A stretch of 64,000 nucleotides of DNA from positions 1,224,511 through 1,288,510 of the forward strand of contig OY771555.1 in NCBI GenBank assembly GCA_963674785.1. Reading direction: 5' to 3'. The DNA is from Caldisericia bacterium. Lineage in GTDB: Bacteria > Caldisericota > Caldisericia > JAAYUI01. The first letter of the stretch is position 1, and every line of letters begins with the position of its first letter. The notes beneath the pieces are model-generated. The model saw only the letters and a list, made by a program, of their open reading frames with translations. It did not search any database and had not been told where the DNA came from. The position numbers and the translations under genes were made by a program. This document shows positions 9,327-62,045 of the stretch, piece after piece.

Positions 9327-9443
9327 GCACTCAATATACAATAAATTCTCAATTTGTTCAATCGATAACAGAACAATTGCATGAAGAGGTTGTATGAAAG
9401 CTGTTGACCCAAAATTCTTGAAGGGATTGAAAACTCTTATAAA

Positions 9444-15100: not shown

Positions 15101-15638
15101 CATAATCAACAGTTGCACCCATTTCCTCAGCAACATATCTGATGAGAAGGAACATTCTTGACTGATTGATTACTGGTGCTGCCTCCATTGGCCCCTTTTC
15201 GCCATCGTCAACCCAATACATGGTGTTTCCAACCTGATACTTGAGGATTCTTACACAATCATCTTCTTCCTCGTCTGGTGGGCAGGTTGGGGTCGCACAG
15301 TCCTCAATCGACTGAGCAAACTCATTTGCACCACTATCAACAGCGCGAACATAGTAGCAATAGAGCTGATCGTTCTGGATGTTGATTGTGTCTCTGAAAT
15401 ATGTTTCCTCAATTGGGAAATCAGTAAGAGGAGTTGCATACTCCATGCCAACTCCTGGTCCCCTGTAAATCCAGTAGTGGGCAGCATTTGGGACAGCATC
15501 CCAAACCAAGTCGTTATAACCACAACCAGGTGTGACTGTCAGATTAAATCCATCCTGAGCAACAGCTGGTGTGTTGGGTGGAATAATGCTCAAAATCATG
15601 AGCACAGCAATAGCAAACGTTATAAGTCTAGCCTTCAT
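12153..15638 (-). CDS. Large secreted Cys-rich repeat protein; N-terminal FnIII-like plus tandem CAO-N-like module, then repeated 'ECWKVCG...DCCG...C[VF]CV' units
   Basis: Signal peptide 'MKARLITFAIAVLMILSIIPPNTPAVA'. 'VNGRTLLPMRFVAENLGATG' CAO-N signature. At least three 'G[EQ]CW[KI]VCG' units. Many 'DCCG/DCCT/DCCS/ECCV/GDCCP' motifs. Confidence 0.75.
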   Translation of the reverse strand: MKARLITFAIAVLMILSIIPPNTPAVAQDGFNLTVTPGCGYNDLVWDAVPNAAHYWIYRGPGVGMEYATPLTDFPIEETYFRDTINIQNDQLYCYYVRAVDSGANEFAQSIEDCATPTCPPDEEEDDCVRILKYQVGNTMYWVDDGEKGPMEAAPVINQSRMFLLIRYVAEEMGATVDYVAAEKKIIITTTDHNVIEIWIGKPTAAVNGQPVQIDPNNPSVVGYVVNGRTLLPMRFVAENLGATGPNDIKWFSDTSTVVLYFDDPECRECTCMTIASLNTTSEIPTATAVDGNGKTWNLMFEGNSTSLAYKLEVNKCYEICGYPQSSETEDPITTPLPGTNVQTVSVFRVTSIRGVECPCEPDDNNDGGGSCGLCVHVEEVGRGEAYVTDEWGVKWVLFKAPTLQAEFMEGSCINVEGNLVEGKHGFPGFEVTQISEGTCCDNNPPVVECVCVIIDGKTRINDDFFVATGTKEDGTVLGLLIPRDIAYSMNDGECWKVCGEIVEQEDTGEIGTPTPGINFGMKVEEATKEDCCGEPEAECVCVTIKTKVTLNDNLFIMTGDTADTTWGLVVDRNLASDMQIGECWKVCGIVVVQDETTGTPVGKSMRVTEAFLEDCCGNDSNCFCVSVEVVNCDDDEPNFDGYDKNNTAWRVYLSADQCAEIREGQCWIVCGEAKENPIYEDALPYKEIYPTMIRNGGNCCKGDQPPPEDCTWYPVEIFSAERTGTSDLPWKVSIKICGGEFSVFDEYTGSDDIRIDKSGNYKIFDYKGCAKICVVNKRIVSWIALPLVKDCCGNQEQPDPTPESKVCEGKKIFGTVTNRNPGGEGYSDMIFIKECLNPASGMGVMLAADPDLMDTTGKMHIKDIKKGVCGTFCVSISGGSNVLSVDSWTLVSTDGDCCTKITPPKIVVGKIGGIDDDGDSLTVWVSECPDLNENVRLGYNAKKTLMDTTRKYTFQKYGEGKCVILKVKGTEIISWTALDQDKDCCSVIYDGLIENVSEKDKNGDVFVTIKLCDDYNTQFFIDPKMKDIHGQFTFEEYTAKYKHCVRFFTNRNRVVAWQSMKYTECCVDNYDWANIEFNGFTNDANIDGEGAILTLDYRACDEYEMKGMSLMVQPGLRDESGLYSFKTLPPGSCIQVTYTKESSGIYIISWVYKGWGDCCP

Positions 15639-41232: not shown

Positions 41233-41253
41233 AATCAAAATAGGAGATGCCAT

Positions 41254-43785: not shown

Positions 43786-43867
43786 GATATTATTATAAAT
43801 TCTACAAAAAATTAGTCAATCATTAGAAACTTGAAATCCTACACCAAGTGTAGTAGTCTCTTTTTCT

Positions 43868-45529: not shown

Positions 45530-45532
45530 TCG

Positions 45533-46730: not shown

Positions 46731-46779
46731 ATGGACATAGTATTCATTATATCGAGGTTTGCAATGTTTTGAGTCATAC

Positions 46780-48354
46780 CTATTTTGAATATCTCAATAC
46801 AATCTCCTTAGTGTCTGGTACCCATTCAACCTCACAACCAAGACTTTCAGCTAGAAATCTCATTGGAACCATTGTTCTACCGTCGATTATGGTTGGAATA
46901 ACTTCTGGATTGTCAGGGTCAATTTGAGTTTCAACCCCATCAATTCTAGCAGTTGGTTTTCCAATCCAAAGCTCAATGGTTTTATCACCAAGCGTGCAGA
47001 TAACCTTTCTTTCCGTTCCATCCCAGGAAACGCTTCCGCCTAGTGGCTCTGTTACATATCTTGCAGACAAAAGGGTGCGGTCGTTTACTATTGCGGGGGC
47101 AATATCTGAGTCATGTTCGATATTATCAACAGAGTAGCTTTTTTTATCAATCTTGTACTTGACCACTATTGTCCCAGCTTTTCCAAAACAAGTCAGTATT
47201 CCATTAGCATTATCGTAATGAAAAAGTTTCCTGTTCGCTATTTCAATATCAATAAAAAAGGAGTATGGTTTTTTCTCATCGAAGGAATTCAAAACTGAAC
47301 CTGTATTGGCATCAAGAATATAAAAAACCTTTCCATTCGAAAAAAAGAGGTTTTCATTATCTGATACAACGCCATTTAAGAAACCATCATTTTTATGTTT
47401 CCATTTAAGTTTTCCGTTTTTTGGATTATAACAATATAGGGTTTGTGAGGCAGTGATATAAAGATTATTTTCGTCAACTGTTATTTCTGGATAACCCAAA
47501 CTATCATACCAAATTGAATCTTCCCAGACGACTTTCCCATCATTTATTGAGATACACACTAATTTTGCATCACCAGATGCAGGATGTTTGTAGTACGCTC
47601 CAAAACAAAATTGCTCATTTGAAGACAAGACACTATAGCCCCTGTCTTCAAAATCTATTTCCCACTGTTTGGAGAATTTGGTGATATCAGAGCAGACAAG
47701 TTTAGTGTTGAGCTGAAAAATCAATTTATTATTTGATATAATTGGAAAACCGACAAATTCTCCCTCTATATAAGTCGTTTTATCATCTGATTTCAAATCT
47801 ACTTTTTCCATCTTTTTCCAATCAATTGATTGATAAAAACTATTGTTTTTAAATGTACACAAAGAAATTCCATCTTTTGTTCGAGGATCTTTTCTTGACC
47901 ATATCTTTTCTAGAGAATTAACATCAAAACTAGAAGTGATTCTGTAGTTTTCTGAAAGACCGTACACGATTAACTGATCGTTATGGATGCCATATAAACA
48001 GGTATTTTTGAGTTTTTTTCCTTCTTCAAAAACTTCAAAATCCATCAATATTTCACCATTATTAGAATCAATTAACAAAATTGAATCATTTGAGTTAGCT
48101 ACATAAACTATATCGTCATGACAAAAAAAGGCTAAACCTTCATCTCCTTCACTCAGGTGACTCCCTGGAGCTTCCGTTTCCCAAATCCTTTTAAGATATC
48201 TTCCCGGAGAACATTCTCGAGGTACCGAATTAGAAAATGTTGAATCATAATCTTCATGGCACCAGTTGCAATTATTATTTTCGGCAATGATGTTATGCGG
48301 AACAATGCAGAGTATTACAAGCGATACTGAAAGTATAAGTGATATATATTTCAT
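46780..48354 (-). CDS. Secreted PQQ/beta-propeller repeat protein with C-terminal tandem CAO-N-like module; CxxCH directly after the signal peptide
   Basis: Signal peptide 'MKYISLILSVSLVILCIVPHNIIA'. 'NCNWCHED'. C-terminal 'IVNDRTLLSARYVTEPLGG' and 'IDGRTMVPMRFLAESLGCEVEW'. Confidence 0.75.
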   Translation of the reverse strand: MKYISLILSVSLVILCIVPHNIIAENNNCNWCHEDYDSTFSNSVPRECSPGRYLKRIWETEAPGSHLSEGDEGLAFFCHDDIVYVANSNDSILLIDSNNGEILMDFEVFEEGKKLKNTCLYGIHNDQLIVYGLSENYRITSSFDVNSLEKIWSRKDPRTKDGISLCTFKNNSFYQSIDWKKMEKVDLKSDDKTTYIEGEFVGFPIISNNKLIFQLNTKLVCSDITKFSKQWEIDFEDRGYSVLSSNEQFCFGAYYKHPASGDAKLVCISINDGKVVWEDSIWYDSLGYPEITVDENNLYITASQTLYCYNPKNGKLKWKHKNDGFLNGVVSDNENLFFSNGKVFYILDANTGSVLNSFDEKKPYSFFIDIEIANRKLFHYDNANGILTCFGKAGTIVVKYKIDKKSYSVDNIEHDSDIAPAIVNDRTLLSARYVTEPLGGSVSWDGTERKVICTLGDKTIELWIGKPTARIDGVETQIDPDNPEVIPTIIDGRTMVPMRFLAESLGCEVEWVPDTKEIVLRYSK

Positions 48355-48379
48355 AATCTATTTCCTTTGGGTTCCATGA

Positions 48380-48679
48380 TTATGGCGTCCCTCCATAATA
48401 AATGCACTCCCATCTCCAATAATTAGGCGAATCTTTTGGGTTGTCTGGATCTCCATAATAAAACCATATTTTATAACCATCCGTTCCTAGACCTATAGCT
48501 TCCAAACAGTTATAAGATCCCTGATTTGCTCTCTCAAAAACTGTAACTGCGTAACCCGGTTTATAGTTTCCATCCATCTTCCAGGAGAATGTGGTATCAT
48601 CTGCGCCCAAGAATATCTTAGTAACTGGGGTTACTGAGCCGTTTGTTACCTTAATGACGTTACGAGTAGTAGGTACCAT
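48380..48679 (-). CDS. Small hypothetical protein (99 aa) between two paralogous surface-protein genes
   Basis: Open frame only. Trp/Tyr-rich, no signal peptide, no motif. Confidence 0.25.
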   Translation of the reverse strand: MVPTTRNVIKVTNGSVTPVTKIFLGADDTTFSWKMDGNYKPGYAVTVFERANQGSYNCLEAIGLGTDGYKIWFYYGDPDNPKDSPNYWRWECIYYGGTP

Positions 48680-48798
48680 CTAATGTTTCTTCTTCATCAT
48701 AGTTCATACCTTACCCTTACCCATTCAAAGGGTAATTGTCCAGGAATGAGGGATAAAACAATGCCCTCCTTGAATACTTCTTTCACAAGTATTTTATA

Positions 48799-51700
48799 TT
48801 ATGGTGAATGTGTAAGAATGATCTCTTTCGTCTCCGCAATCCACTCAACTTCACAACCAAGACTTTCAGCTAGAAATCTCATTGGTACCATTGTTCGACC
48901 GTCGATTATGGTTGGAACAACTTCTGGATTGTTAGGGTCAATTTGAGTTTCAACCCCATCAATTCTAGCAGTTGGTTTTCCAATCCAAAGCTCAATGGTT
49001 TTATCACCTAGTGTACAGATAACCTTTCTTTCTGTTCCATCCCAGGAAACGTTTCCGCCTAGTGGCTCCGTTACATATCTTGCAGGAAGCAGAGTTCTTC
49101 CACCAATTACCTGCGGGACAACGTCCATTTTTTGTGCACTTTCATCAATATAGTATGTATCTGATCCAAGCTGATATTTGACGCTTATTGTGGTTGGTTC
49201 TTCCGTTATAATATCATCTTCGTTCTTGCCACCATTTGAAGGTGGTGGGGCTGGTTTGTCTCTGTAGGTTTTGTAACAGAAAAGATCTTTTCCAACTGTT
49301 GTGTATATTGCTCCATCTGCAATGGCAATTTTATTTGCAGCGAGATTTGTTTCGATTATCTCTGGTTTTTCTCCGTGTATATCAATTATCTGAAGCATGC
49401 TTCCTTTGGAGAGGAATACATAACCTCCATGAACTGCAAACCCATTTCCGAGGTCGTATTCATCTCTGACTCTCCATTTCAGTTCACTAGTGTTTGCATC
49501 TACTGCAAATATCTGATTGCTTGAAAGGATTATGAGGTCACCTTTATAATAGTGCAGGAAATCGTCTGGGACAGTTGTGTTTTTTTCCATCCTGTAGTGC
49601 CATTTGAGTTCACCGGAAACAGCTTTATAGCAGTACATCCTTCGCCCCTTGGCTCTTGCAAAAACCTTTTCATCATAAACTATGGGTTGGCCGAACGAGA
49701 TATTCTCCGGAGTGATCCACATTAACTCTCCAGTATAGAGCGACAAGCAAAGTATTCTGTTGTCTTTATCAAGTGTGTAAATCATTCCATTTTGAGAAAC
49801 CGGTTGGATTTCGGGATTAACATCATCTCTTCTCCAAAGTACGTCACCAGTAATTGGGTCTATGCAATGGAGTCTGTTGATTGCAAGCATTGTAGATACA
49901 TATTTTGAAACAAATAGAACCCTATTTTTTGCAACAAATGGTGATGTTATGAATTTTGGATGATAGTGGTAACCAAATTTCCAGGTTTCTGAGCCGTCTT
50001 TTCTTGAAATTGAGTGGAACATCCCGTCATTGCCGCCTGTATAGACAGCATTATTTGAAAGAGCAAGTTCGCTCAGTTCTGTACCTTCTATTTCGCTGCT
50101 ATATTTGACTTCTCCATTTTCACTGTCGATTGCAAGCAACATACTTTTGTCTAATCGTGTTATTTTTGATGTGATATATGCAGTGCCATTTGCAACAACT
50201 GGTTGGGTGGGGACAAATGAGTTTTCAAGTTTCCAGTAGAGTTCTAGATTTGAAATATCAATTTCGCAATCTGATTCCTCTCGAAGATAATCTTCTTTTA
50301 TGAATCCCCTGGCCATATACCAACCACAAGGATCATTGTCCTCAAATATCTCTTCCTCCGGTAGTTCTGATGGCGGGTTTGGATCGGTTGGTGGAAGTGG
50401 CTCTGGGTCAGGGTCAGGAACAGGATCAAATATCCAATCATCTTCTGATCTTGGTGAAAGAGCATAGCAGTAAAGACAGTTTTCTCCCTGGATATAAAAA
50501 ACCTTACCGTCAATTACACTGTAATACTTGTCGTCATCAATTAACATCCTCGTTGCTGGTTCATGAACAAGGAACATCCAAAGCGTTTTTCCAGTTTCCG
50601 GTTCAACTGCGATGACATAACTTTTCTCACCTTTTGTGCCTGTAAAATAGTAAGTGTCACCAGATAGTTGTTTGAATCTATAACCTTTACGGATGTTAAA
50701 TTTACCCTTCTCGATCCTCCATCTTTCTTCCTTTGTTTCCAAATCAATCCCAACAATATCAACAAATTCTGAGTTCTCTTGAAACTCCTCAAAGATAAGT
50801 GTGTTGTTGTATCTTGCCAGAGAATCCACGTACCCCTTTGAATCAAAACTCCATAATAGATCTCCAGTGTATCTATTTACACAATTGATAATATCAATTT
50901 TATGTCCCTTGGATGCTACAAGAAGTTTGTTGTCCCAAATTGTTGGATTTCCTGAAACATTATGTGAAAGAGAATCAAATCTCCATATTGGTTTTCCGGT
51001 AAGCTTATCAGTGCAATTGAGCTCAGTACTTACCCAGTACAGGTAGTCTCCTCCATATGCTCCTAGAAAGTTGGGGTAATCAAATGGATAATCAAGTTTT
51101 GTACTCCATCTGACGTTGCCATCAGTCGAGTTTAGGCAAAAAAGTTCACCATTACAGTTACCGAGGTAGACTCCACCATCATATTCTTGAATGTGAACAG
51201 GACAGTTGGGTGTTCTGTATCCATGGACCTGGTCTTTGCTCATCCAATCTCTTGTTTGAGTTCTTACATCATACTTCCAAATTGTTTGATAGGAATTGTG
51301 ATCACCAAGAGCAGCACAGTAAAGCTTTCCTCTATTTGAATAGTATTGATATCCATATGTGTCTTCAAGATCAAGCCCTATGTAGACTACTTTTTCCCAG
51401 AGTTCTTTCCCAGTTTTTTTATCTAAGTAGTTAAGAAAAACGTTTGCATGCCTATTCTGTGGGTCTGGAACTTGTTTATATTCAACAAAGACATTGCCGT
51501 AATATGTTGCTACTGCCTTATAGTTGCATCTCCTCCAGACAAGGTTGATATTGCTTCCGTGCATTGTTATTTCATCACCCTCCATTGGGGGATCAGGTTC
51601 TGGCACAGGCTCTTTCCCTGGTTTTGCCTTGGCTGAAAGACAATAAATTTCTCCATCGAAACTATTAACAAAGATTTTTCCGTATCCGATAGATGGTGTG

Positions 51701-52776
51701 GATCGGAATGTTTTCTCGAGATTCTTCTCGAGCAAAATATTTCCTTTGTTTGCTAGATCTAGTACGAATAGCTTGCCCTTATCATTAATAACTATTATTT
51801 TTGTTCCGACTATCACAGGAGAATTGCTTACTCCATCTACTTCCAGATTTTTCTCCCAAATCCTTATGCCATCTTTTTTTCTTATGCAATGGATACTCCC
51901 GTCAGTTGCTGCTGCGATAACAAGAGCATCTGTAACTGCAGCTGAGGTATCAAAGCTGTCATCAAATCGTTTAAACCAGTTGACATATTCCCCATTGCTG
52001 CTACTGATGCAGGCTATAGACCCATCATCAAAAGTGAAATATAGATATTTATCTGAATAGCTTGGTGCTGTTGCAATCTGGTTGCTGAAACGCCTGCTCC
52101 AAATAACAGTACCATTGTCCTTATCAAGACAGTATACTTGTTTATTGCTATCAGAAAAAACTATCCCTGTATCTGTTTCACAAGGAGATGTAACAATCAT
52201 TTCTTCAGCAACTCTTGACCATATCATGGAACCATCAGAAAGATCAAGACAAGCAATGACAGCCAACTCAGTGGCTATATAGATTTTCTCATCGATTATA
52301 ATTGGTGAGGAGGAGACTGGTCCTTTCATTTTCTTAGTCCAGATGATTCCTCCAGTTTCGTTATCGAGACAAAAAACTTTTCCATCCTCAGAATACGTTG
52401 GAACAATAATCTTGCTTTCATTTGTGCATGGTGTTGCGACGATTTCTGCTTCAAGATTTTTTCTCCATACCATTGTGCTGGATGAAATATCAAATCTGTT
52501 GACCATGCCTGAATTACTCGTCGTATAGATTGAGTCAAATGTTACAAGTGGTGAAGTTGAAAAGCCTGACTCAATTTTCCTATTCCAGAAGATGCCAAAA
52601 TCTGTGAAATCAATATCACATGAGTCTTTGATAAATTGAGTTCTTGCGTTGTTCCCGCCCCAGCAAAACCAGTTACAATCACTGGATGCATCAGCATTTT
52701 CAGTGTGTATCCCTGGTAAGATCATTGTAGATATCAATAAGATTGCCAAAAGGATTCTTTTCATTTTTGCCTCCAT
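48799..52776 (-). CDS. Giant (1325 aa) secreted multi-propeller PQQ-repeat protein with C-terminal tandem CAO-N-like module
   Basis: Signal peptide 'MKRILLAILLISTMILPGIHT'. Multiple 'xxG.ViW' beta-propeller blades. Pro-rich linkers ('PEPDPPMEGD', 'DPVPDPDPEPLPPTDPNPP'). C-terminal ~95 aa nearly identical to 46780-48354. Confidence 0.8.
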   Translation of the reverse strand: MEAKMKRILLAILLISTMILPGIHTENADASSDCNWFCWGGNNARTQFIKDSCDIDFTDFGIFWNRKIESGFSTSPLVTFDSIYTTSNSGMVNRFDISSSTMVWRKNLEAEIVATPCTNESKIIVPTYSEDGKVFCLDNETGGIIWTKKMKGPVSSSPIIIDEKIYIATELAVIACLDLSDGSMIWSRVAEEMIVTSPCETDTGIVFSDSNKQVYCLDKDNGTVIWSRRFSNQIATAPSYSDKYLYFTFDDGSIACISSSNGEYVNWFKRFDDSFDTSAAVTDALVIAAATDGSIHCIRKKDGIRIWEKNLEVDGVSNSPVIVGTKIIVINDKGKLFVLDLANKGNILLEKNLEKTFRSTPSIGYGKIFVNSFDGEIYCLSAKAKPGKEPVPEPDPPMEGDEITMHGSNINLVWRRCNYKAVATYYGNVFVEYKQVPDPQNRHANVFLNYLDKKTGKELWEKVVYIGLDLEDTYGYQYYSNRGKLYCAALGDHNSYQTIWKYDVRTQTRDWMSKDQVHGYRTPNCPVHIQEYDGGVYLGNCNGELFCLNSTDGNVRWSTKLDYPFDYPNFLGAYGGDYLYWVSTELNCTDKLTGKPIWRFDSLSHNVSGNPTIWDNKLLVASKGHKIDIINCVNRYTGDLLWSFDSKGYVDSLARYNNTLIFEEFQENSEFVDIVGIDLETKEERWRIEKGKFNIRKGYRFKQLSGDTYYFTGTKGEKSYVIAVEPETGKTLWMFLVHEPATRMLIDDDKYYSVIDGKVFYIQGENCLYCYALSPRSEDDWIFDPVPDPDPEPLPPTDPNPPSELPEEEIFEDNDPCGWYMARGFIKEDYLREESDCEIDISNLELYWKLENSFVPTQPVVANGTAYITSKITRLDKSMLLAIDSENGEVKYSSEIEGTELSELALSNNAVYTGGNDGMFHSISRKDGSETWKFGYHYHPKFITSPFVAKNRVLFVSKYVSTMLAINRLHCIDPITGDVLWRRDDVNPEIQPVSQNGMIYTLDKDNRILCLSLYTGELMWITPENISFGQPIVYDEKVFARAKGRRMYCYKAVSGELKWHYRMEKNTTVPDDFLHYYKGDLIILSSNQIFAVDANTSELKWRVRDEYDLGNGFAVHGGYVFLSKGSMLQIIDIHGEKPEIIETNLAANKIAIADGAIYTTVGKDLFCYKTYRDKPAPPPSNGGKNEDDIITEEPTTISVKYQLGSDTYYIDESAQKMDVVPQVIGGRTLLPARYVTEPLGGNVSWDGTERKVICTLGDKTIELWIGKPTARIDGVETQIDPNNPEVVPTIIDGRTMVPMRFLAESLGCEVEWIAETKEIILTHSP

Positions 52777-52852
52777 AGAGCCATTCTATCCACAAGAAAC
52801 CGCTCATTCTACTAACAATCAAGAGAAGAAGAGTTAAAAATCAAGTTTTATT

Positions 52853-55369
52853 CTAATATGACACTGACGGATAAACAATCTCAATTGCCTGTTCATCAGC
52901 AATCCAGTTAACTTCTGCACCAACTGATTCACATGCGAATCTGAGTGGAAGCATTGTTCTTCCCTTAACAATCGTTGGATAGAGAACTGTAGTACCATCG
53001 GCACCAATAATCTTTTTCTCGACACCATTTATTTTTGCAACAGGGTTATCAATCCAAAGCTGAACTTTGATGTCACCAAGTGTTGCATCAACTCTTCTTT
53101 CGTCTCCATCCCAACCAATTGTTGCCCCAAGTGCTTCATAAACAGCTCTTACTGGCATATAGGTATTGTTATGAAGATCGTGAGGGAGTGGGGGAGAAGT
53201 GTTGACTGGTTTTGGGTCAAGTTCAGGCATCTCTTCACCATTTTTTTTAAATCTTGGGGTATTTACCCAGAGTTTGAGTCTTGTCCGGGTATCAGACTCT
53301 TGCAACATATATTCTTTTATTTCTGAATTCCCAGCCCTATCAACAACCTTAATATCGATAACCATCTCAATCCCTGTCATCTCAATATCCCTATAAAACC
53401 AAGCTAATTCTGTGGATGTGTCGACAAGCTCATCAGCTTCTTCTCCATTGATAAAAACTCTTGCATCAGGCTCGGTTTCAATTTTCACCCTAAAAGCTTC
53501 AAATTCCCTAATAATAGTGTTTTCATTTGGTTCAAGAACCACAAACTCTGGCGGAGTAATATCATAGGTAATTTTAAATACTGGAGTAAAACTTAAGTTA
53601 CAAGCTTGATCCGTATATTTAAGATCAAAAACACTTGTTCCGTCTATCAATTCAACTTTGTATTCCCATTCTTTTGCCATCTTATCTTCATAAAAAGATG
53701 TCATTTCTCCCTTTGAAATAACACTTATTCTTGATGAGCCATTCTGAGCGATTGTCACGGAATCAAAGTATTGATTCTTGATTTCTCCGTTTTCTTCTAT
53801 GTTTTCTGCAAAGATTTCACCTCTGAATGTAAATACTTTTTTGTTTGTATACACTCGATTCTCTGTTGGATAGGTAATAGATGCTTCGGGTTTTGAGGTA
53901 TCAATCATAATTCTTTTATGGTTTGGGCTTTCTTTTGTTCCATCGGTTTCTGAGTAGTAGTAAAAATCAATGATGCTACACTCATCATCAATAAAAATTG
54001 GTTTTAAATATTCGTGGGGGTCATTTTCACCGCCCTCAAAGTAGTAATAGACTTTCACATCTGGATTATTACAAGCTAGCTCTATCTCTATTGGCTCGTT
54101 GTACCACCCATCGCAACCAAGTTTTTCTTCTTCATCAATAATTTTGAGAGTTGTTTCAATCTCCCTTTCTTTTACCTCAAGGGCTTCTGATTCGATGAAT
54201 TCTGGTTCAGAAGTTGTTGATACAAAAACAGAAAATGGCTCTTCACACTTGTTTTCAAAAAGCTTCCCATCGATTTCTATCTCTACATGACCATTGTTAT
54301 TGACATCAACGGGGCTAACAAATGAAATGATATTGTTCTTTTTGTCCAATTCAAAGTTCGAATCCTCACGAATCCCCTGGACTCCGTTTACTGTGAAGTA
54401 TTTTGATAACGTATATTTTTTTGCAACCTCAAAACAATTTGGGAAATCGATGATTATTTTTGATGAATCTTTATCAAGAGCACCACCCTCACCGACATTG
54501 AATTCAACATTATATTTTGTAATCTCGCCTTCATCATTCAAATAATAAAAGAAATTGGGTTTAGATATCTCTGAACATGGGAGCACAAAAGAATCAGATT
54601 CAACTGGAGTTGGTTCGGCTTTTGTTGCAACTCTTAATCTATATCTTCCAGGTGTTGCGGGAGAGATGATTCCTGTTTTAGCGGAAACACCTAAGGCAAT
54701 TGGATTGTATCCTTGCCTCCAAGTTTCAATCCCATAGCTTGTCAAAAATTTTATTGATCTCTCGGTGCAGGTTTGAGTGATTTCTGGATAATACCACCAC
54801 CTGCATGGGTCATATCCAACCATTAATAAATCATCGAATTTTGACAAGAATTGTTCTCTATCTTCATCATCTTCTGGAATAGATGGAAAAACTGTTCCGA
54901 GAAGATACTCTTTGTCATCAAAATTAATAACACTTTTTAGCTCTCGATTCGAAGAAGTTTCACAATCACCTATGTCAATATACTTTACTTCCGGTATTTC
55001 ATCCATACCTGAAGTTTTATAAATCTTATTTTTTGTAATAAGTCTACAATTTTTTGATTCCAGATATGCAAGATTGTATTCCTGGTCAATTTCACCACAA
55101 ATTTCTTTAGGATCTGAATCTGCTTCTGTTACTGGAAACCATATTTTAAACCAGTCATGTGGATCCAAATCGATATTCAACAACACATGTATAGTAAAGT
55201 TATTCAACGAGTTTGCTCTTGCTCGTCCTGGCTCTTTATCACCCCAACTGGTATTTAACTCCACACGAACTGGCCCTAAAACAGCACCTGTGGTATCAAT
55301 CCATAAGAATGAAAAAACTAATAACACTACAACTATTGTTATAAAAAGCTTTTTTGAGTTTCTGTTCAT
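52853..55369 (-). CDS. Surface protein (signal anchor) with C-terminal tandem CAO-N-like module
   Basis: GAGGGGG Shine-Dalgarno 8 nt upstream of the ATG at 55369 ('MNRNSKKLFITIVVVLLVF'); the ORF track GTG start at 55387 is less likely. C-terminal 'NTYMPVRAVYEALGATIGW' and 'KGRTMLPLRFACESVGAEVNW'. Confidence 0.75.
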   Translation of the reverse strand: MNRNSKKLFITIVVVLLVFSFLWIDTTGAVLGPVRVELNTSWGDKEPGRARANSLNNFTIHVLLNIDLDPHDWFKIWFPVTEADSDPKEICGEIDQEYNLAYLESKNCRLITKNKIYKTSGMDEIPEVKYIDIGDCETSSNRELKSVINFDDKEYLLGTVFPSIPEDDEDREQFLSKFDDLLMVGYDPCRWWYYPEITQTCTERSIKFLTSYGIETWRQGYNPIALGVSAKTGIISPATPGRYRLRVATKAEPTPVESDSFVLPCSEISKPNFFYYLNDEGEITKYNVEFNVGEGGALDKDSSKIIIDFPNCFEVAKKYTLSKYFTVNGVQGIREDSNFELDKKNNIISFVSPVDVNNNGHVEIEIDGKLFENKCEEPFSVFVSTTSEPEFIESEALEVKEREIETTLKIIDEEEKLGCDGWYNEPIEIELACNNPDVKVYYYFEGGENDPHEYLKPIFIDDECSIIDFYYYSETDGTKESPNHKRIMIDTSKPEASITYPTENRVYTNKKVFTFRGEIFAENIEENGEIKNQYFDSVTIAQNGSSRISVISKGEMTSFYEDKMAKEWEYKVELIDGTSVFDLKYTDQACNLSFTPVFKITYDITPPEFVVLEPNENTIIREFEAFRVKIETEPDARVFINGEEADELVDTSTELAWFYRDIEMTGIEMVIDIKVVDRAGNSEIKEYMLQESDTRTRLKLWVNTPRFKKNGEEMPELDPKPVNTSPPLPHDLHNNTYMPVRAVYEALGATIGWDGDERRVDATLGDIKVQLWIDNPVAKINGVEKKIIGADGTTVLYPTIVKGRTMLPLRFACESVGAEVNWIADEQAIEIVYPSVSY

Positions 55370-55462
55370 AAAACTACCCCCTCTCACATAAAACCATTAT
55401 CTTCAGAACAAGACCCCTAAGCAATAGATAGAAGGGGATATAAAAGTAAAATCACACAAAAA

Positions 55463-55490
55463 GAAAAACCCCCTGGAATTTCCAGGGGGT
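55463..55490 (-). terminator. Rho-independent terminator downstream of the 1877-aa surface-protein gene
   Basis: 'CCCCCTGGAatTTCCAGGGGG' hairpin at 55469-55489; on the minus strand it is followed by TTTTTCTTTTT. Confidence 0.8.
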
Positions 55491-55519
55491 TCGCTATATC
55501 AAAAATTCTTACTTAAAAA

Positions 55520-58500
55520 CTACTTTTCTGACGGATAAACAATCTCGATTGCTTGTTCGTCGGCAATCCAGTTGACATCTGCTTTGAGTGCTTCGCAGGC
55601 AAACCTGAGTGGGAGCATTGTTCTTCCACCAACGATTGTTGGATAAAGAACTGTTGTCCCGTCAGCACCAAGAATCTTTACCTCGCTACCACTGATCTTT
55701 GCGGTTGAGTTGTCAATCCAGAGCTGAAGGACAGTGCTTCCAAGAGTTGCATCAACTCTTCTTTCGTCCCCATCCCAACCAACTGTTGCTCCAAGTGCTT
55801 CAAAGATTGCACGAACTGGCATATATGTGTTTCCTGCAAGTGCTGCTGGAAGTGGTGGTGACTGTGTTGTTGGCATTGGGTCAAGGTCGTCAACCTGTTT
55901 GTCGTTGATAACAAATTTTGCTGTATTTACCCAAAGCTTGAGTCTTGTTCTTGTGACGGCACCCTGAGTGTATGTGATTTTGTAGTTGCTTGTTCTGCAA
56001 TTATTGTAGCTGTCGCAGGTCTTGACTTCGATTTCGTTCAAGCCGCTATTAAGGGCAATAGTTTTTGTGAAGAACCATGTTTCATCAACATTTTCTGCAA
56101 ACGGGTCTTCTTGAATTTTTACTGTTTCACCATTGATTGTGAGTTTTGCATTCTCTTCAGTGAAGCCCATAAATTCGATTGCACTTTCACCTGTTATCAT
56201 GGAATTATCCAATGAAAGAAGGTTTTCGCTTGGTTTTGTAACAGTCAAAAATGGTGGTTCATTATCAAGATAAACAACTAGAGTAATTGCGTCACTTTCG
56301 CCTGTGAAGTTTCTTGCGATAATAACGATGTTGTTGAATCCAGCTTTAAGGTCATATGGGTATTTGAATGAGCCATCGTTGTTGATTTTGATAACATTTC
56401 CATCGATGAAGAGAGTAACTTGTGAAAGACCTTCATCTGATTTTATTTTTCCTGAGAGCTCGATGTTTGATTCATTTGTTTTGATGTCTGAATAATTGTA
56501 GTCTTGCTCTTCTCTTCTTCTCTGTGCTTCTTCAATTGTTGGCCAAGGAGATGTGTGTTTGATTGGTGCTGAGAGTTCAACTACAGGTGGTTCTGCATTC
56601 TGTCTGATTGCAAGAGTGGTATCGTGTGCAATTGCAATGATATTATTTCCGCTTGCATCCATGAGACTTACATTCTCGATACCGATTCTGATTCCATCCT
56701 TTTGAATCTTGTCACCTTTTGCTTTAAGGGTAAATGTCACAACGATGTTTTCATCGCGGTCTGCATAAACACCAGACTGCTCTCTGCTAATGCTTACTGA
56801 GATTCTTCCTGGAGTGTGATCGTAATCCCATGATGGCTGCTCTCCGCCTCTTGTGAGGAATCCTCCAAGTGAGATATGTGTTACATCGAGGTACTGGTCA
56901 TCATAAACAAAATCAAGCATTGCACCCATAACCTCGAGACCGCCCTTAAGATTAACCTTTACTTCAGTCTGTTTACATATGTCGTTGATTGCACAAGATG
57001 TAATGATGTGTCTTTCGGGGATAAGTTCGACATCAAGCTTTTTTGCTTTTGCCTTTATTTCAAGAACCTTATCAAATGGTTCGCCACGTGAATTTGAGCC
57101 TGTTCCTTTGATGGATACTTTGTATCCATCTTCAATATAAGCCATGTCCTGATTTGCTTTGAGTGAAACAATGCTTTCAAATGGTGGAACTCCAAATGCT
57201 GGGTTGAATGTTGCTGTGAAAAACTCTGATGACTCTTCACCAAGTACGAGGTTTACTGGGTTATCGTATTCGTTGATTGAATCAACCGAAAGCTTGAAGT
57301 CAGTTACCTGCCCAGGGGCAACATCAATGATCGCTTTGCCTATTGGCTCCATTTCAAATGATGGTGGCTTGGCTGGTTCGATAAGCATACTAAGGTCAAA
57401 CTTCTCAACAGTTCCTGAAGCAGTTTCTGAGACCTTAAGTAGATAGTTACTTTCCGTTCCTTCTGGGCTTTCAACAGGGACATCCATTGACACACCAATA
57501 ACGACTGATTCCATTGGGTGGAGGCTTAATTCTGCACCACTTGCCGTTGGCACGGAGTCGATCATTATCATTGTTTCCCATGCTTCGCCTGAGACGTGAT
57601 TCATGTCTACAGTGAAATCTAATGGGATGTTGCCAAGATTTGTAAGCACGTATGACTGTTCAGGTCTTGAGCCAGCCTGGACGCTGAAATCTGATTCTGA
57701 CTGTGTGAGGCTGTATTTTCTAAAGAGTGGCTGCTTGAGATCGCACATTGTTGACTGAAGGATTTCTTTTGTGGTGTTATCCTGAATCCAAGCAACGATG
57801 AAACAGTTTTTGTAGAGAGTTGTCCAATCGTATTCGGTACCAGTTGTTGGAAGTTTGAATTTCATGTCGTAGTATGTTGTTCCGACAGGAAGTGAGATTG
57901 GATCACCAAGGTGACCCTTGTCTTCAGCTGGTTCTTCTCCGTAGTGATGGAGCATCTTCATGACTGTGAGTGAGTGTTCTTCCTCACCATTATCGGCTGA
58001 GAATTCAACATTGTTTTCAACGAGAGTGAAGTACACATTGAGATCTCTATAGCTGCTTACATCCTGATATGTTTTGATTTCAAGGTTTGCAAAACCAACT
58101 GATTTTCCAATTGTTCCCTGGAGGAACAGTTTGATTGGAGAGCGCTGCTCTTTGTAATCAACAACTCTCTGGTAGAATCTCCAGTAACTATAGGAGCTAC
58201 CAGACATTTTTCTGTCGGGGAGAATATCAGGAGCTTTGTCCTGTCTTTCGTGAGGTCCGTCACCTTCTGAGAAGTTCTGAAGCCCATTATACATCGTGGT
58301 TGGAAGACCTTCTTTTGTGTACCATCTGTATCTGTAATGGTGTTCTTCCTGCGTCATACCTGAGTTATCTTTTGGGGCGTCAGCATAGTAAGCAATAGGG
58401 ATAATTTCTGCATACCCGTATTCTTCCGCCATTCTGTATTGTGATTCTCTGTGATATGGACAATACTGACACCAAACGGCTGTGAAAGTCTCAGTTAGAA

Positions 58501-61153
58501 GTGTTCTTGGAACATATCCAGTGCTTTCCGTTGGTGGATTGACAAGGAGGGCAACTGTGAATGCGACCTCTTTGTTCTGGGCAGTCGATGACTTCATTAC
58601 AATTTCGATTTCGTAGATACCCGGAATGAGTTCGCCTCTGGATTTGAAAGTTACGGTTGTTTTTGTTGCGCCATCTTTAACTCTGATTGTGCTTGGATCA
58701 AAGCTTATATTTAGTGCGGTAAGAGCAAATCCTGAGCAGTCGACATTTTTAACATCAAGGTGAGGATGTTTGTTTTCCGATCCATTTGGAACAACACAGA
58801 GTTTTGCAGGTTTTTTGTATGTCAAGCTAACATTTCCATCAAAACCATTCTGAGGAAGAACCTCAAGTTCAAGTGTTCCGGGTGTGTCGCTATCAAGTTC
58901 TACAAAAAGAACTGTGTCTGGGCTTAAAGTAAATCCATAGCTATCTGAAACAAGAACTTTTACGGGAACCTTTATGGTGCCTTTGTTTGTTTTGATATTG
59001 AGAACTGCTTCAATTGTTTCACCTGCAGCCATACCTGTTGTGTCAACTTTGACATTGACCATGATGGTGTCACCGACGAAATTCTTTGGTTCAACTGAAA
59101 CAAAATTAAGATCCTGCTCGATATCGATACTTCCTGAAAGCATTCCACCAGACCAGTTTCTGATCTCTATTCTTTTCTGAAGTGTCTGACCAACACCCAT
59201 TACACCGAAGTCAAGAATATTTGGTGCAACAGTAAAATATACATTGTAATCTGGTTGTGAAACAAATGTTGCAGTATCGATTCTTGGAAGATTAAAGACG
59301 GTGCTGTATGGGATAACCTGAAGTCTGTGGTTTCTTGTATCAGCAACAACTATTCCTTGGTCATTGCATGCGATTGCCTCAGGATACATGAAAAAGCCTT
59401 TTGCCTCTTTATATTCATCGCCTTCCTGCATTGCGTTTTCCCAGCCAGCTTTTGAGAAGAATATTGCTCTTCCTGGACCACCAGTTTTACCATAATCCCA
59501 GGATCTTGTTGAGTTGTTGTCAAAAACAACAAGTCTGTCGTTGAATGTATCTGCGGCAAAAATCATACCTGATTCATCATATGAACAATCGGATGGGAAG
59601 AAGAGCATTCCTTCACCTCTACCTTTGTGCCCATACTGTCTGATTGGGTTGCCGTCCATGTCAAACTCTTGAAGTCTGCAGTTTGCTGCGTCGGCTACAA
59701 GGAGTTTTCTGCCATCTGTTGTAATGCTTTTTGGAAGATTAAACTGTCCAGGTGATGAGCCAAATCCGCCAAACTGACCAAGGAATTCGCCACCAATTGA
59801 GAAAGTCTGAACAAGGTTGTTTCCGGTGTCTGCAACAAATATCTTTCCAAGTGATGAGGAAACTGCAATATCTGATGGTGAGTTAAGTTTGCCATTTCCG
59901 TAACCAAATGAGCCTATTGTGTTCTGGTATTTGCCGTTTCCTGAGAAAACTTTAACACAATGGTTTCCGCTGTCTGCGACATATATGTTTCCATCTTTGT
60001 CAAAATCAAGCCCTTCAGGTGTGAGAAGTTCGTTTGTGCCTGTACCTTTTTTCCCGAATTCAGATGAAAATCCATTTTCGTTGAAAAGAAGGATTTTTGA
60101 ACGAGCTGAGTCTGCAACGGCATATGTGCCGTTTGAGATTGAAAGACCAACAGGGAGTCCAAATGAACCAGAACATGCATTATCATCCTCAGGAAGAGAA
60201 GAAACATATTTGCCATCTGGGTTGAAAATGTCTACTCTGTTGTTTTTGTAAGAGGAGACGTAGATTTTTCCGTCTAGAACTGTGATTCCCATTGGACCAT
60301 TGATCTGTCCTCTGCCATTTCCAGGGGATCCGAACGAATTTATTGTTGTACCATCAAGAGAATAAACGAGGATTGAGTTTTCTGAATAGTCTGTGACATA
60401 AACTCTGTTGTCAAAAATAGTTATTCCGTATGGAGCTTTTGCTTCGCCAAAAGCATTAATGAAGCTTCCGTCGATTCCAAATATAAATATTTTTCCAGCT
60501 GATGGGTCAGTGACAAAGATTTTTCCTTCAGTGACAGCAATTCCTGTTGGTTTTTCGAGTGTATAGTTTTCGCCGTCTGTTGTTGGAATTGTGAGTGCAA
60601 GATTGTCTTTAAGGTCAACTGCGATGATGTTTTTTGCACCAGTATTTGCGATATATAAGAGACCGTTGAATGCAAAAATATCACTTGGATGAACCATGTA
60701 TGATTCACCTGTTTGTGGATTTATAGCGTGAAGCTCTTTTTCTATTTCGTCGTCTGATCTGTTTCCGCGAACGAGGATTTTTCCATAAAATCTATCCAAC
60801 CAGTAAATCTTGTTTTGGAAACATGTGATTCCACCTGGATCTGAGTTAAGGAATTCATGGCTACCTAGAAGTCCGTATGCGTACTGAGGTGTCCCATCTT
60901 TCAAGATGGCTTGAACTCTGGTGTTGATACTGTCAACAATGTAGACTCTGTTACCTTCATTAGCGAGCCATGTGGGGCCAACAAAAGAGCCAATAGCACA
61001 TTCATTTCCGACGAGTTTTACCCCGAAATCAGATAAACGATTTTTATGCTCTTCGTTTGCTAAAACACTTCCAATGACTGGTAGATAAGATAGTACCAAT
61101 AACAATCCTAGTGCCAATGAGATGGCTTTCTTTTGTAAACTTGCGAAACTCAT
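55520..61153 (-). CDS. Giant (1877 aa) surface protein: signal peptide, NHL-repeat beta-propeller, thioredoxin-like CxxC domain, Ig-like/cadherin-like domains, C-terminal tandem CAO-N-like module
   Basis: Signal peptide 'ISLALGLLLVLSYLPVIGSVLA'. NHL-type repeats 'YVADSGNHCVKVF', 'FVADTGNNLVQTF', 'VADTRNHRLQVI'. 'TAVWCQYCPYH' followed by 'EGLPTTMYNG'. C-terminal 'NTYMPVRAIFEALGATVGW' and 'GGRTMLPLRFACEALKADVNW'. Confidence 0.8.
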   Translation of the reverse strand: MSFASLQKKAISLALGLLLVLSYLPVIGSVLANEEHKNRLSDFGVKLVGNECAIGSFVGPTWLANEGNRVYIVDSINTRVQAILKDGTPQYAYGLLGSHEFLNSDPGGITCFQNKIYWLDRFYGKILVRGNRSDDEIEKELHAINPQTGESYMVHPSDIFAFNGLLYIANTGAKNIIAVDLKDNLALTIPTTDGENYTLEKPTGIAVTEGKIFVTDPSAGKIFIFGIDGSFINAFGEAKAPYGITIFDNRVYVTDYSENSILVYSLDGTTINSFGSPGNGRGQINGPMGITVLDGKIYVSSYKNNRVDIFNPDGKYVSSLPEDDNACSGSFGLPVGLSISNGTYAVADSARSKILLFNENGFSSEFGKKGTGTNELLTPEGLDFDKDGNIYVADSGNHCVKVFSGNGKYQNTIGSFGYGNGKLNSPSDIAVSSSLGKIFVADTGNNLVQTFSIGGEFLGQFGGFGSSPGQFNLPKSITTDGRKLLVADAANCRLQEFDMDGNPIRQYGHKGRGEGMLFFPSDCSYDESGMIFAADTFNDRLVVFDNNSTRSWDYGKTGGPGRAIFFSKAGWENAMQEGDEYKEAKGFFMYPEAIACNDQGIVVADTRNHRLQVIPYSTVFNLPRIDTATFVSQPDYNVYFTVAPNILDFGVMGVGQTLQKRIEIRNWSGGMLSGSIDIEQDLNFVSVEPKNFVGDTIMVNVKVDTTGMAAGETIEAVLNIKTNKGTIKVPVKVLVSDSYGFTLSPDTVLFVELDSDTPGTLELEVLPQNGFDGNVSLTYKKPAKLCVVPNGSENKHPHLDVKNVDCSGFALTALNISFDPSTIRVKDGATKTTVTFKSRGELIPGIYEIEIVMKSSTAQNKEVAFTVALLVNPPTESTGYVPRTLLTETFTAVWCQYCPYHRESQYRMAEEYGYAEIIPIAYYADAPKDNSGMTQEEHHYRYRWYTKEGLPTTMYNGLQNFSEGDGPHERQDKAPDILPDRKMSGSSYSYWRFYQRVVDYKEQRSPIKLFLQGTIGKSVGFANLEIKTYQDVSSYRDLNVYFTLVENNVEFSADNGEEEHSLTVMKMLHHYGEEPAEDKGHLGDPISLPVGTTYYDMKFKLPTTGTEYDWTTLYKNCFIVAWIQDNTTKEILQSTMCDLKQPLFRKYSLTQSESDFSVQAGSRPEQSYVLTNLGNIPLDFTVDMNHVSGEAWETMIMIDSVPTASGAELSLHPMESVVIGVSMDVPVESPEGTESNYLLKVSETASGTVEKFDLSMLIEPAKPPSFEMEPIGKAIIDVAPGQVTDFKLSVDSINEYDNPVNLVLGEESSEFFTATFNPAFGVPPFESIVSLKANQDMAYIEDGYKVSIKGTGSNSRGEPFDKVLEIKAKAKKLDVELIPERHIITSCAINDICKQTEVKVNLKGGLEVMGAMLDFVYDDQYLDVTHISLGGFLTRGGEQPSWDYDHTPGRISVSISREQSGVYADRDENIVVTFTLKAKGDKIQKDGIRIGIENVSLMDASGNNIIAIAHDTTLAIRQNAEPPVVELSAPIKHTSPWPTIEEAQRRREEQDYNYSDIKTNESNIELSGKIKSDEGLSQVTLFIDGNVIKINNDGSFKYPYDLKAGFNNIVIIARNFTGESDAITLVVYLDNEPPFLTVTKPSENLLSLDNSMITGESAIEFMGFTEENAKLTINGETVKIQEDPFAENVDETWFFTKTIALNSGLNEIEVKTCDSYNNCRTSNYKITYTQGAVTRTRLKLWVNTAKFVINDKQVDDLDPMPTTQSPPLPAALAGNTYMPVRAIFEALGATVGWDGDERRVDATLGSTVLQLWIDNSTAKISGSEVKILGADGTTVLYPTIVGGRTMLPLRFACEALKADVNWIADEQAIEIVYPSEK

Positions 61154-61962: not shown

Positions 61963-62045
61963 GGGTTCACCTTCCTTTTGTTTAACTACATTGTATGATT
62001 TTTTGCATCTTTGACAAATTCGATTTCAGATATATAACTAGGATT

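What the first reader, a model, noticed from the sequence alone, without database searches (positions are those of the whole stretch)
46780..61153. Tandem array of four same-strand giant surface-protein genes (8 in the window) sharing one C-terminal CAO-N-like anchoring module
Eight proteins (1585, 6489, 12153, 25325, 46780, 48799, 52853, 55520) end (six) or begin (two) with the same double module '...(I/V)(D/N)GRT(L/M/V)(L/V)P(L/M)RF(V/L/I)(A/S)E..G..V.W'. To my knowledge this matches the copper-amine-oxidase N-terminal-like domain used by Firmicutes for cell-wall attachment. The passenger regions are all different (PKD, thioredoxin-like, Cys-rich repeats, FnIII, PQQ propellers, NHL propeller). 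This looks like a modular surface-display system with one conserved anchor and swappable heads, occupying ~40% of 64 kb. It is a plausible S-layer or adhesin toolkit of an organism that invests heavily in its surface.
Basis: partly seen in the sequence, partly recalled or inferred. Interest (0 to 1): 0.6.

Follow-up and report, generated by a model that had tools for sequence, protein, structure and literature searches.

The report
Shared-module surface proteins in Caldisericota
A poorly known bacterium (phylum Caldisericota) encodes many large secreted proteins that carry the same 130-residue module on very different heads; the domain call is correct and ordinary, its claimed cell-wall-anchor role is unproven, and the DNA encoding the module appears to be where neighbouring genes recombine.

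Summary

- The organism belongs to Caldisericota, not Firmicutes.
- Wall binding by PF07833 has not been shown in the literature I could search. There it is a homodimerisation domain (PaSOD), a surface-protein or peptidoglycan-hydrolase appendage, and a probe that failed to label cells.
- The module is acidic and resembles no known wall-binding fold.

New here: the module-coding 3' ends of adjacent genes are kept alike. For E/F this is 92.8% nt identity over 265 bp, with dS 0.25 against saturated flanks. The two differences from a close relative (gene E absent, head of G replaced) have breakpoints inside module-coding DNA. Similar arrays with alike 3' ends recur in other Caldisericia and metagenome contigs.

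Verdict: a new member of a known kind, of moderate interest.

The parts
46780..48354 (-). Gene E, 524 aa: signal peptide, one PQQ_2-type beta-propeller, C-terminal PF07833 module (module-coding 46783-47172)
   Evidence: PF07833 E 5.5e-29; PQQ_2 E 3.9e-17. Absent from the close relative L020.
48799..52776 (-). Gene F, 1325 aa: signal peptide, three PQQ_2-type propeller regions, C-terminal PF07833 module (module-coding 48802-49191)
   Evidence: PQQ_2 E 5.5e-73 in 6 stretches; PF07833 E 1.3e-30. Orthologues in L020 (90% aa) and L100 (57% aa).
52853..55387 (-). Gene G, 844 aa: signal peptide, string of Ig-like beta-sandwich domains from a Caldisericia-specific multi-paralogue family, C-terminal PF07833 module (module-coding 52856-53290)
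   Evidence: The gene at this position in L020 is only 27-41% identical in aa, while the neighbours are 90-96%.
55520..61153 (-). Gene H, 1877 aa: signal peptide, NHL propeller, Ig/BACON-like domains, Omp28/thioredoxin-like region with WCQYCP, cohesin-like domain (sub-threshold), Glucodextran_B/Big domains, C-terminal PF07833 module (module-coding 55523-55957)
   Evidence: L020 orthologue is 95.6% identical in aa.
46802..47066 (-). Homogenised tract in the 3' end of E, paired with 48821-49085 in F (92.8% nt identity over 265 bp)
   Evidence: dS is 0.25 here against saturated flanks, including the first 35 codons of the module itself. The F-to-E crossover in the L020 junction lies within this tract.
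48821..49085 (-). Homogenised tract in the 3' end of F, partner of 46802-47066
52864..53284 (-). Shared tract in the 3' end of G, paired with 55528-55948 in H (75.4% nt over 423 bp). Homology with L020 resumes at about 53180, inside this tract.
   Evidence: dS 0.83 against saturated upstream
55528..55948 (-). Shared tract in the 3' end of H, partner of 52864-53284
55466..55492 (-). Strong terminator-like hairpin (12-bp stem, 7 G-C pairs, T-run) just after the stop codon of H. It suggests H is transcribed separately from G.
48380..48679 (-). 99-aa ORF without a signal peptide or family match, in the 444-bp gap between F and E. It is missing from L020 together with E.
1585..4281 (+). Gene A, 898 aa: signal peptide, fn3-like domain, PF07833 module near the N-terminus (1957-2370), then PKD-like repeats (sub-threshold)
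6489..9341 (-). Gene B, 950 aa: signal peptide, Omp28/thioredoxin-like region with WCGYCP, BACON_2 domain, two degenerate module copies (6870-7664) and one good C-terminal module (6492-6869)
12153..15638 (-). Gene C, 1161 aa: signal peptide, fn3-like domain, PF07833 module near the N-terminus (14853-15257), then eight ~84-106-aa Cys-rich repeats delimited by CC pairs (60 Cys in the passenger)
   Evidence: Syntenic orthologue in L001 at 45-56% aa.
25325..27262 (-). Gene D, 645 aa: signal peptide, fn3-like and Ig-like domains, C-terminal PF07833 module (25328-25735)
   Evidence: A module-bearing gene lies at the syntenic position in all six Caldisericota loci L001-L006.

Best explanation
The window comes from a Caldisericota (class Caldisericia) chromosome. 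That phylum lacks LPS genes and BamA, and its envelope type is unresolved. The window encodes part of a large repertoire of Sec-exported, strongly acidic, multi-domain proteins whose heads are binding-type folds: PQQ-like and NHL beta-propellers, Ig-like rods, Cys-rich repeats, and BACON/cohesin-like domains. The source genome has at least 13 such proteins. All carry one portable ~130-residue PF07833 module, an internal duplication of a five-strand/helix/two-strand unit with the fold of E. coli amine oxidase domain D1. Most likely (inferred, not shown) the module is a common retention or assembly handle. It would hold these proteins at the cell envelope non-covalently, either by binding a shared envelope component or by pairing with other copies of the module. 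Shown at the DNA level: the module-coding 3' ends of neighbouring genes are kept similar by recombination or gene conversion. These tracts are also where gene content changes between close relatives. Gene E has been lost or gained between the two direct repeats, and the head of G has been replaced between the modules of H and G. The array therefore behaves as a set of head cassettes flanked by module-coding repeats.

For: Export: all eight window proteins, and 100 of 118 5'-complete module ORFs in related loci, have a signal-peptide-like N-terminus.

Taxon: PEPCK is 62-83% identical to Caldisericia MAGs. Named module homologues are nearly all from Caldisericia. All 6 Caldisericota loci around PEPCK carry a module gene, against 0 of 13 Chloroflexota loci.

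Repertoire: four further G paralogues plus P0092 lie on the same 2.23-Mb contig. L100 and L101 each hold six module genes in about 23 kb.

Recombination: the E and F tails are 92.8% identical in nt over 265 bp, while the rest of the two proteins is about 30-37% identical in aa. dS is 0.25 inside the tract and saturated outside it. The L020 junction is F-like 5' of the tract and E-like 3' of it. The tract that has diverged from L020 runs from about 55500 to about 53180, bounded by the end of H and the module of G. The same pattern of alike 3' ends recurs in L100 (87.8% over 295 bp), L101 (98.5% over 395 bp), L024 and L023. Modules cluster by locus rather than by orthology.

Support for envelope association from the literature: PF07833 proteins were found in a surfaceome and on peptidoglycan hydrolases (PMC4137172), and on the cell-surface proteins OlpC/ScaG (PMC3413522).
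Against: There is no direct evidence that PF07833 binds any wall or envelope component. The one probe experiment I found was negative (bioRxiv 10.64898/2026.09.23.753664), and the only biochemistry shows homodimerisation (PMC10432803). The modules are acidic (pI 4.6-5.7), unlike many modules that bind anionic wall polymers. There is no structural or sequence link to SLH, CWB2, LysM, SPOR or SH3b modules. The cassette-exchange inference rests on one close relative, L020. That is a MAG contig with 1-bp frameshifts, so an assembly error at the repeat cannot be fully excluded. Alike tails could also partly reflect local tandem duplication.
Confidence: 0.6

Rival explanations
1. The module is only a dimerisation or oligomerisation domain, as in Paenibacillus PaSOD, and not an envelope anchor. 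It would pair the products of neighbouring genes (E with F, G with H) or make homodimers. The proteins would then be released, or held by some other means.
For: The PaSOD N-terminal PF07833 domain mediates homodimerisation (PMC10432803), and it is the only PDB sequence hit of the module profile (8imd, E 5e-3). PF07833 is described as a dimerisation domain in flavinylated proteins (PMC11334425). Adjacent genes keep near-identical modules, which would suit pairing of their products. A module-containing probe did not label cells (bioRxiv 10.64898/2026.09.23.753664).
Against: PaSOD has a single half-unit and its fold differs from amine oxidase D1 according to its authors. The modules here are complete double units that fold as a confident monomer, so they may already be intramolecular pseudo-dimers. 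Dimerisation does not explain why so many unrelated secreted heads, including peptidoglycan hydrolases in Firmicutes, carry the module. The two roles are not mutually exclusive.
Confidence: 0.25
2. The proteins are structural components of an S-layer or of the outer sheath-like layer seen in Caldisericum exile. The module would be the lattice-forming or layer-tethering element.
For: C. exile shows an outer membrane-like envelope by electron microscopy but has no BamA and no LPS genes (PMC4104836, PMC5007114). The proteins are large, very acidic (pI 4.3-4.9) and built of Ig-like or propeller domains. The generic fold hits for G include an archaeal S-layer protein. The family is abundant in Caldisericia.
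Against: S-layers are usually built from one or two very abundant proteins, not dozens of different heads. The fold hits have TM-scores of 0.1-0.2 and are generic Ig arrays. No expression or lattice data exist. Caldiserica are reported to retain some SLH/CsaB genes, which could serve that role (bioRxiv 10.1101/2021.05.31.446380).
Confidence: 0.1
3. The alike 3' ends are only the residue of tandem duplication plus strong purifying selection on a structural spacer ('stalk') with no binding role. The differences from L020 would be assembly artefacts.
For: L100 contains a recent 2.2-kb tandem duplication (89% nt) of two module genes. L020 carries 1-bp frameshifts, so it is not an error-free assembly.
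Against: Synonymous divergence drops sharply inside the module (dS 0.25 against saturated flanks), and part of the module itself lies outside the tract; purifying selection on the protein does not produce that pattern. The heads of E and F (about 30% aa identity) and of G and H have different domain content, so the genes are not recent whole-gene duplicates. The same pattern occurs in several independent assemblies. The L020 errors are single-base deletions typical of long reads, which would span a 265-bp repeat 2 kb apart.
Confidence: 0.05

Closest known systems
Clostridium thermocellum OlpC / Acetivibrio cellulolyticus ScaG (cell-surface cohesin proteins with a PF07833 domain)
   Same: These are secreted surface proteins without SLH domains in which a PF07833 domain is joined to a binding domain. 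Gene H also has a cohesin-like region (22.4 bits, just under the 24.1 cut-off).
   Different: The module is N-terminal and single in OlpC/ScaG. They are Firmicutes cellulosome components. No dockerin partners were seen here. The cohesin call in H is below threshold. How OlpC attaches to the cell is not stated in the papers I could read.
Clostridioides difficile Cwp family (CWB2 anchor) and SLH-domain surface proteins of Firmicutes
   Same: Same design: many paralogues share one conserved non-covalent anchoring module and carry diverse functional heads, often in gene clusters. Recombinational switching of the C. difficile S-layer cassette is a comparable way of varying the heads (from my own knowledge, not checked here).
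Paenibacillus lautus PaSOD N-terminal domain (PDB 8imd)
   Same: It is a PF07833 family member on an extracytoplasmic protein, and the only solved structure hit by the module profile.
   Different: It has one half-unit, with a fold its authors report as different from amine oxidase D1, and a demonstrated homodimerisation role. The modules here are full double units matching D1 (rmsd 1.6-1.8 A).
E. coli copper amine oxidase domain D1 ('stalk')
   Different: D1 is part of a periplasmic enzyme and has no assigned function. No amine oxidase catalytic domains are present here.

Membership tests
Pfam PF07833 (Cu_amine_oxidN1 / 'stalk' domain) | Match to the family HMM above the gathering score (24.2 bits) | tested here: met
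   72.7-168.4 bits in all eight proteins. Also met in the paralogues P0125, P0126, P0132, P0133 and P0092.
Pfam PF07833 (Cu_amine_oxidN1 / 'stalk' domain) | Fold of E. coli amine oxidase domain D1 | tested here: met
Established non-covalent cell-wall-binding modules (SLH, CWB2, LysM, SH3b, PG_binding_1, SPOR, AMIN) | Sequence or structural similarity to one of these modules | tested here: not met
Established non-covalent cell-wall-binding modules (SLH, CWB2, LysM, SH3b, PG_binding_1, SPOR, AMIN) | Demonstrated binding to peptidoglycan or a secondary wall polymer | not testable with these tools
   Only indirect literature is available. It includes one negative labelling result for a probe carrying this domain (bioRxiv 10.64898/2026.09.23.753664).
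Secreted / extracytoplasmic proteins | N-terminal signal peptide | tested here: met
   A positively charged n-region followed by a hydrophobic stretch is present in all eight proteins. A crude hydrophobicity test gives 100 of 118 in related loci, and the exceptions are mostly fragments. No dedicated predictor such as SignalP was available.
OlpC/ScaG-type cohesin scaffoldins | Cohesin domain above threshold, together with PF07833 | tested here: inconclusive
   H aa 1397-1507 scores 22.4 bits for PF00963 against a 24.1-bit cut-off. Dockerin-bearing partners were not searched for genome-wide.
BamB / PQQ-dependent dehydrogenases (for E and F) | Score above the NCBIfam equivalog/subfamily cut-off | tested here: not met
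   F scores 209 bits against a 285-bit cut-off for TIGR03300, and 95 against 480 for PQQ alcohol dehydrogenase. E scores about 20-24 bits. Only the generic propeller repeat (PQQ_2) is shared.
S-layer proteins | Self-assembly into a two-dimensional lattice; very high expression | not testable with these tools
   Only generic Ig-array fold hits were found, including one archaeal S-layer chain at TM 0.14.
Recombinational cassette variation of surface proteins | Divergent or missing segments between close relatives, bounded by conserved repeats, with reduced synonymous divergence in those repeats | tested here: met
   based on one close relative (L020). Supporting patterns occur in L100, L101, L024 and L023. 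Population-level confirmation was not possible.

The most novel reading that the evidence does not exclude
In Caldisericota, the PF07833 double module is the phylum's main system for holding proteins on the unusual BamA-less, LPS-less outer envelope layer, or for building that layer. Its coding sequence also serves as a built-in recombination handle that lets neighbouring genes exchange, lose or replace their heads, giving rapid surface variation, for example against phages.
Probability: 0.25. Interest if true: 0.6.

Novelty: new member of a known kind. Interest (0 to 1): 0.35.

Why it matters
PF07833 is a large, widely annotated domain family with no established function, and the envelope of Caldisericota is an unresolved case in the debate over one-membrane versus two-membrane bacteria. 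Dense, recombining arrays of PF07833 proteins in this phylum supply concrete candidates for testing what the domain binds and what the outer layer of these cells is made of. Candidates include the module of E/F, the module of G/H, and the Caldisericia-specific G head. The finding also cautions that the 'cell-wall anchor' label commonly attached to this domain is not backed by direct evidence. It does not reveal a new kind of system: families of surface proteins sharing one module on varied heads are common.

Tried and rejected
1. Exact-sequence look-ups of window proteins (E, MeaB, P0121, P0092) found nothing on record, so the source record could not be named. The cluster look-up showed only an unnamed 2,233,174-bp NCBI/ENA contig.
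2. A metagenome scan using the conserved flanking gene 45533-46198 found no relatives.
3. A single-sequence phmmer search of the module against the PDB gave nothing. The profile search gave only PaSOD, weakly.
4. Charge test for a wall-polymer binder: the modules are acidic, so electrostatics give no support.
5. Structure of G: moderate confidence (pLDDT 77, pTM 0.40) and only generic Ig-array matches, so no functional lead.
6. E and F as BamB or PQQ enzymes: rejected, since scores are far below the family cut-offs.
7. The sigma-70 promoter scan found fewer sites than in shuffled sequence, so it is uninformative. Only the terminator after H is convincing.
8. Purifying selection as the sole cause of alike tails: rejected on the basis of dS.

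Full report

Yes. Pfam assigns PF07833 (Cu_amine_oxidN1) to every one of them, at 72-168 bits against a gathering score of 24.2. All 12 occurrences lie inside these eight ORFs.

Six proteins end with the module. In A (1585) and C (12153) it sits at aa ~125-262, after the signal peptide and a shared fn3-like domain. Protein B has one good module preceded by two degenerate copies. All eight have a signal-peptide-like N-terminus.

The four genes at 46780-61153 are all on the minus strand. A strong terminator-like hairpin follows H (55492-55466), so the array is probably not a single operon.

**2. What is the module?**

An alignment of the eight modules (A1) has ten invariant residues. AlphaFold2 folds the E module with pLDDT 96.4 into two copies of a five-strand/helix/two-strand unit.

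- Foldseek against the PDB returns only E. coli copper amine oxidase (rmsd 1.8 A over 77 columns, prob 1.0).
- By sequence, the only solved relative is the Paenibacillus PaSOD N-terminal domain (8imd, E 5e-3).

The family assignment is therefore secure. However, there is no structural or sequence link to any module whose wall-binding has been demonstrated (SLH, CWB2, LysM, SH3b, PG_binding, SPOR). The modules are mildly acidic (pI 4.6-5.7) and the passengers strongly so (pI 4.3-4.9).

**3. Whose genome is this?**

Not a Firmicute. The window's PEPCK is 83, 75, 69, 69, 69 and 62% identical to Caldisericia/Caldisericota MAGs, and under 52% identical to anything else found. The nearest homologues of the module and of G that carry a name are nearly all from Caldisericia. 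The surrounding genes are ordinary chromosomal ones: Na/Pi cotransporter, TrmO, PEPCK, MeaB, CobO, a CLC channel and a cupin-type GPI. The source appears to be a 2,233,174-bp contig in NCBI/ENA.

According to the literature, Caldiserica lack LPS genes (PMC5007114). C. exile has no BamA, yet shows an outer membrane-like layer by electron microscopy (PMC4104836). The phylum is treated as having lost the outer membrane (bioRxiv 10.1101/2021.05.31.446380). Its envelope type is therefore unresolved.

**4. What is known about PF07833 function?**

Full-text searches found only the following:
- It occurs on peptidoglycan hydrolases and other proteins of the Desulfotomaculum reducens surfaceome (PMC4137172).
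- It is the non-SLH domain of the cell-surface cohesin proteins OlpC and ScaG (PMC3413522).
- It mediates homodimerisation of PaSOD (PMC10432803), and is called a dimerisation domain in flavinylated proteins (PMC11334425).
- In a panel of putative wall-binding domains from Paenibacillus hydrolases, the non-SLH probes, one of which carried this domain, did not label cells even after envelope disruption (bioRxiv 10.64898/2026.09.23.753664).
- No paper links Caldisericota with this domain.

**5. How widespread is the arrangement?**

- All six Caldisericota loci around PEPCK carry a module-bearing gene at the position of D. L001 also has an orthologue of C. None of the 13 Chloroflexota loci has one.
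- The source genome holds at least five more PF07833 proteins: P0125, P0126, P0132, P0133 and P0092. That makes at least 13 in total.
- A metagenome scan with the F module returned 78 loci. Among loci of at least 15 kb, tandem same-strand arrays recur: L032 has four genes, L055/L056 have four plus one, and L024 has three plus one.
- L100 and L101 each have six module genes in about 23 kb, one of them fused to a penicillin-amidase domain.
- Of 118 5'-complete module ORFs, 100 have a signal-peptide-like N-terminus. The exceptions are mostly fragments.

**6. The new observation: the module-coding ends recombine**

*Within the window.* The 3' ends of E and F are 92.8% identical in nt over 265 bp (46802-47066 and 48821-49085). 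The rest of the two proteins is about 30-37% identical in aa. Nei-Gojobori dS is 0.25 inside the tract and saturated on both sides, including the first 35 codons of the module itself. Protein-level constraint cannot explain that pattern. G and H show an older version of the same thing: 75% nt over 423 bp, with dS 0.83 against saturated upstream sequence.

*Compared with a close relative.* L020 (GCA_041391325.1) is collinear with window 38999-58983 at 83-92% nt identity. It differs in the array in two ways.
- Gene E and the F-E spacer are missing. The single remaining tail is F-like 5' of the shared tract and E-like 3' of it and downstream. That is the product expected from recombination between the two direct repeats. 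A more distant genome (L100) has an F orthologue followed by another propeller-plus-module gene, so loss in L020 is the likelier direction.
- The gene in the G position is only 27-41% identical in aa, while its neighbours are 90-96% identical. The diverged stretch runs from the end of H (about 55500) to about 53180, inside G's module. G belongs to a family with several paralogues in the same genome, one of them 82% identical, so donors for such a replacement exist.

*In other assemblies.* The same alike-3'-end pattern appears in L100 (87.8% over 295 bp), L101 (98.5% over 395 bp), L024 (87% over 194-244 bp) and L023 (about 85% over 180-190 bp). Modules tend to be most similar to their locus neighbours.

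*Caveats.* Only one close relative was available. It is a MAG contig with single-base frameshifts. Those look like long-read errors, which argues against repeat collapse but does not exclude a mis-join.

**7. What the heads are**

- E and F carry PQQ_2-type propellers, far below the BamB and dehydrogenase cut-offs.
- H combines an NHL propeller, Ig/BACON-like domains, an Omp28/thioredoxin-like region with WCQYCP, a sub-threshold cohesin, and Glucodextran_B/Big domains.
- G is a string of beta-sandwich domains (AF2 pLDDT 77, pTM 0.40) with only generic Ig-array neighbours. Its N-terminal ~400 aa are a conserved, Caldisericia-specific domain.
- C has eight Cys-rich repeats.

None of the window's heads is a recognisable enzyme. 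They look like binding or structural domains.

**8. Most likely mechanism, and rivals**

I favour the following (confidence 0.6). The module is a common handle that keeps exported proteins at the envelope, by binding a shared envelope component or by pairing with other modules. Its coding sequence acts as flanking homology for gain, loss and replacement of heads. The export, domain identity, repertoire size and recombination signatures are shown. The retention function is inferred.

- Main rival (0.25): the module only dimerises, as in PaSOD. That would fit neighbours keeping matching modules.
- An S-layer or sheath role (0.1) is a special case that cannot be tested here.
- Mere duplication plus purifying selection plus assembly error (0.05) is contradicted by the dS discontinuity and by recurrence in independent assemblies.

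**9. Comparison with known systems, and novelty**

The design matches that of C. difficile Cwp (CWB2) and SLH-protein families: one module, many heads. The closest architecture is OlpC/ScaG. [quoted passage not shown]

This is a new member of a known kind. What is added here is the phylum context, the density of the arrays, and the evidence that module-coding DNA is the recombination site. Interest is moderate (0.35): a specialist would not be very surprised. It does, however, offer a concrete route to the unknown function of PF07833 and to the nature of the Caldisericota envelope.

Noticed in passing
window 41739-43823: This two-gene segment is present in the window but absent from the otherwise collinear relative L020. 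It encodes a 195-aa protein with a weak DarG-like hit (41736-42323, minus strand) and a 494-aa HD-domain protein with a weak dGTPase-like hit (42301-43785, minus strand). It may be a small defence-type or mobile insertion.
   Followed up: partly
window 16305-17414 (-): A 369-aa protein with an N-terminal EVE domain (PF01878) and a C-terminal region matching a type II restriction enzyme model in PADLOC (E 2e-20). This is an unusual fusion, sitting between TrmO and a Mur-ligase-like gene.
   Followed up: no
window 6489-9341 (aa 42-149) and 55520-61153 (aa 882-1015): B and H share an Omp28/thioredoxin-like region with a CxxC motif (WCGYCP and WCQYCP). It gives sub-threshold hits to an 'Omp28-related selenoprotein' model, which suggests an extracytoplasmic redox-type domain on two of the surface proteins.
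   Followed up: partly
window 12153-15638 (-), aa 440-1161: Protein C contains eight ~84-106-aa repeats, each delimited by a CC pair (60 cysteines in the passenger), with no Pfam or NCBIfam match. A syntenic orthologue in L001 is only 45-56% identical.
   Followed up: partly
window 48380-48679 (-): A 99-aa ORF with no signal peptide and no family match lies in the 444-bp spacer between F and E. It is lost together with E in L020.
   Followed up: partly
window 24451-24526 (+) and 25162-25237 (-): tRNA-Met and tRNA-Phe genes lie just downstream of gene D, next to a small helix-turn-helix-like ORF (24683-25060). This could be an integration hotspot, but it was not examined.
   Followed up: no
window 9444-12083 (+), 34349-37186 (+), 37244-38569 (+): Three further large exported proteins lack the PF07833 module: an 879-aa propeller protein with a lipobox-like N-terminus (…VVSC), a 945-aa repeat protein with no family match, and an arylsulfotransferase-like propeller. 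The region is rich in exported beta-propellers generally.
   Followed up: no
L100 15103-17308 and 18741-20946: Two adjacent ~1210-aa genes with N-terminal PF07833 modules share a 2.2-kb tandem duplication at 89% nt identity, and their modules are 100% identical. The next gene fuses PF07833 to a penicillin-amidase domain, so enzymes also carry the module in this lineage.
   Followed up: partly
L020 6696, 9151-9215, 9850, 12551: The relative's F orthologue and CLC channel gene are broken by single-base deletions. These are either long-read assembly errors or real pseudogenisation, and that affects how far L020 can be trusted.
   Followed up: partly
window 61995-62792 (+): A cupin-type glucose-6-phosphate isomerase (PF06560), a type that (from my own knowledge, not checked here) is best known from Thermococcales, is encoded next to the array.
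   Followed up: no
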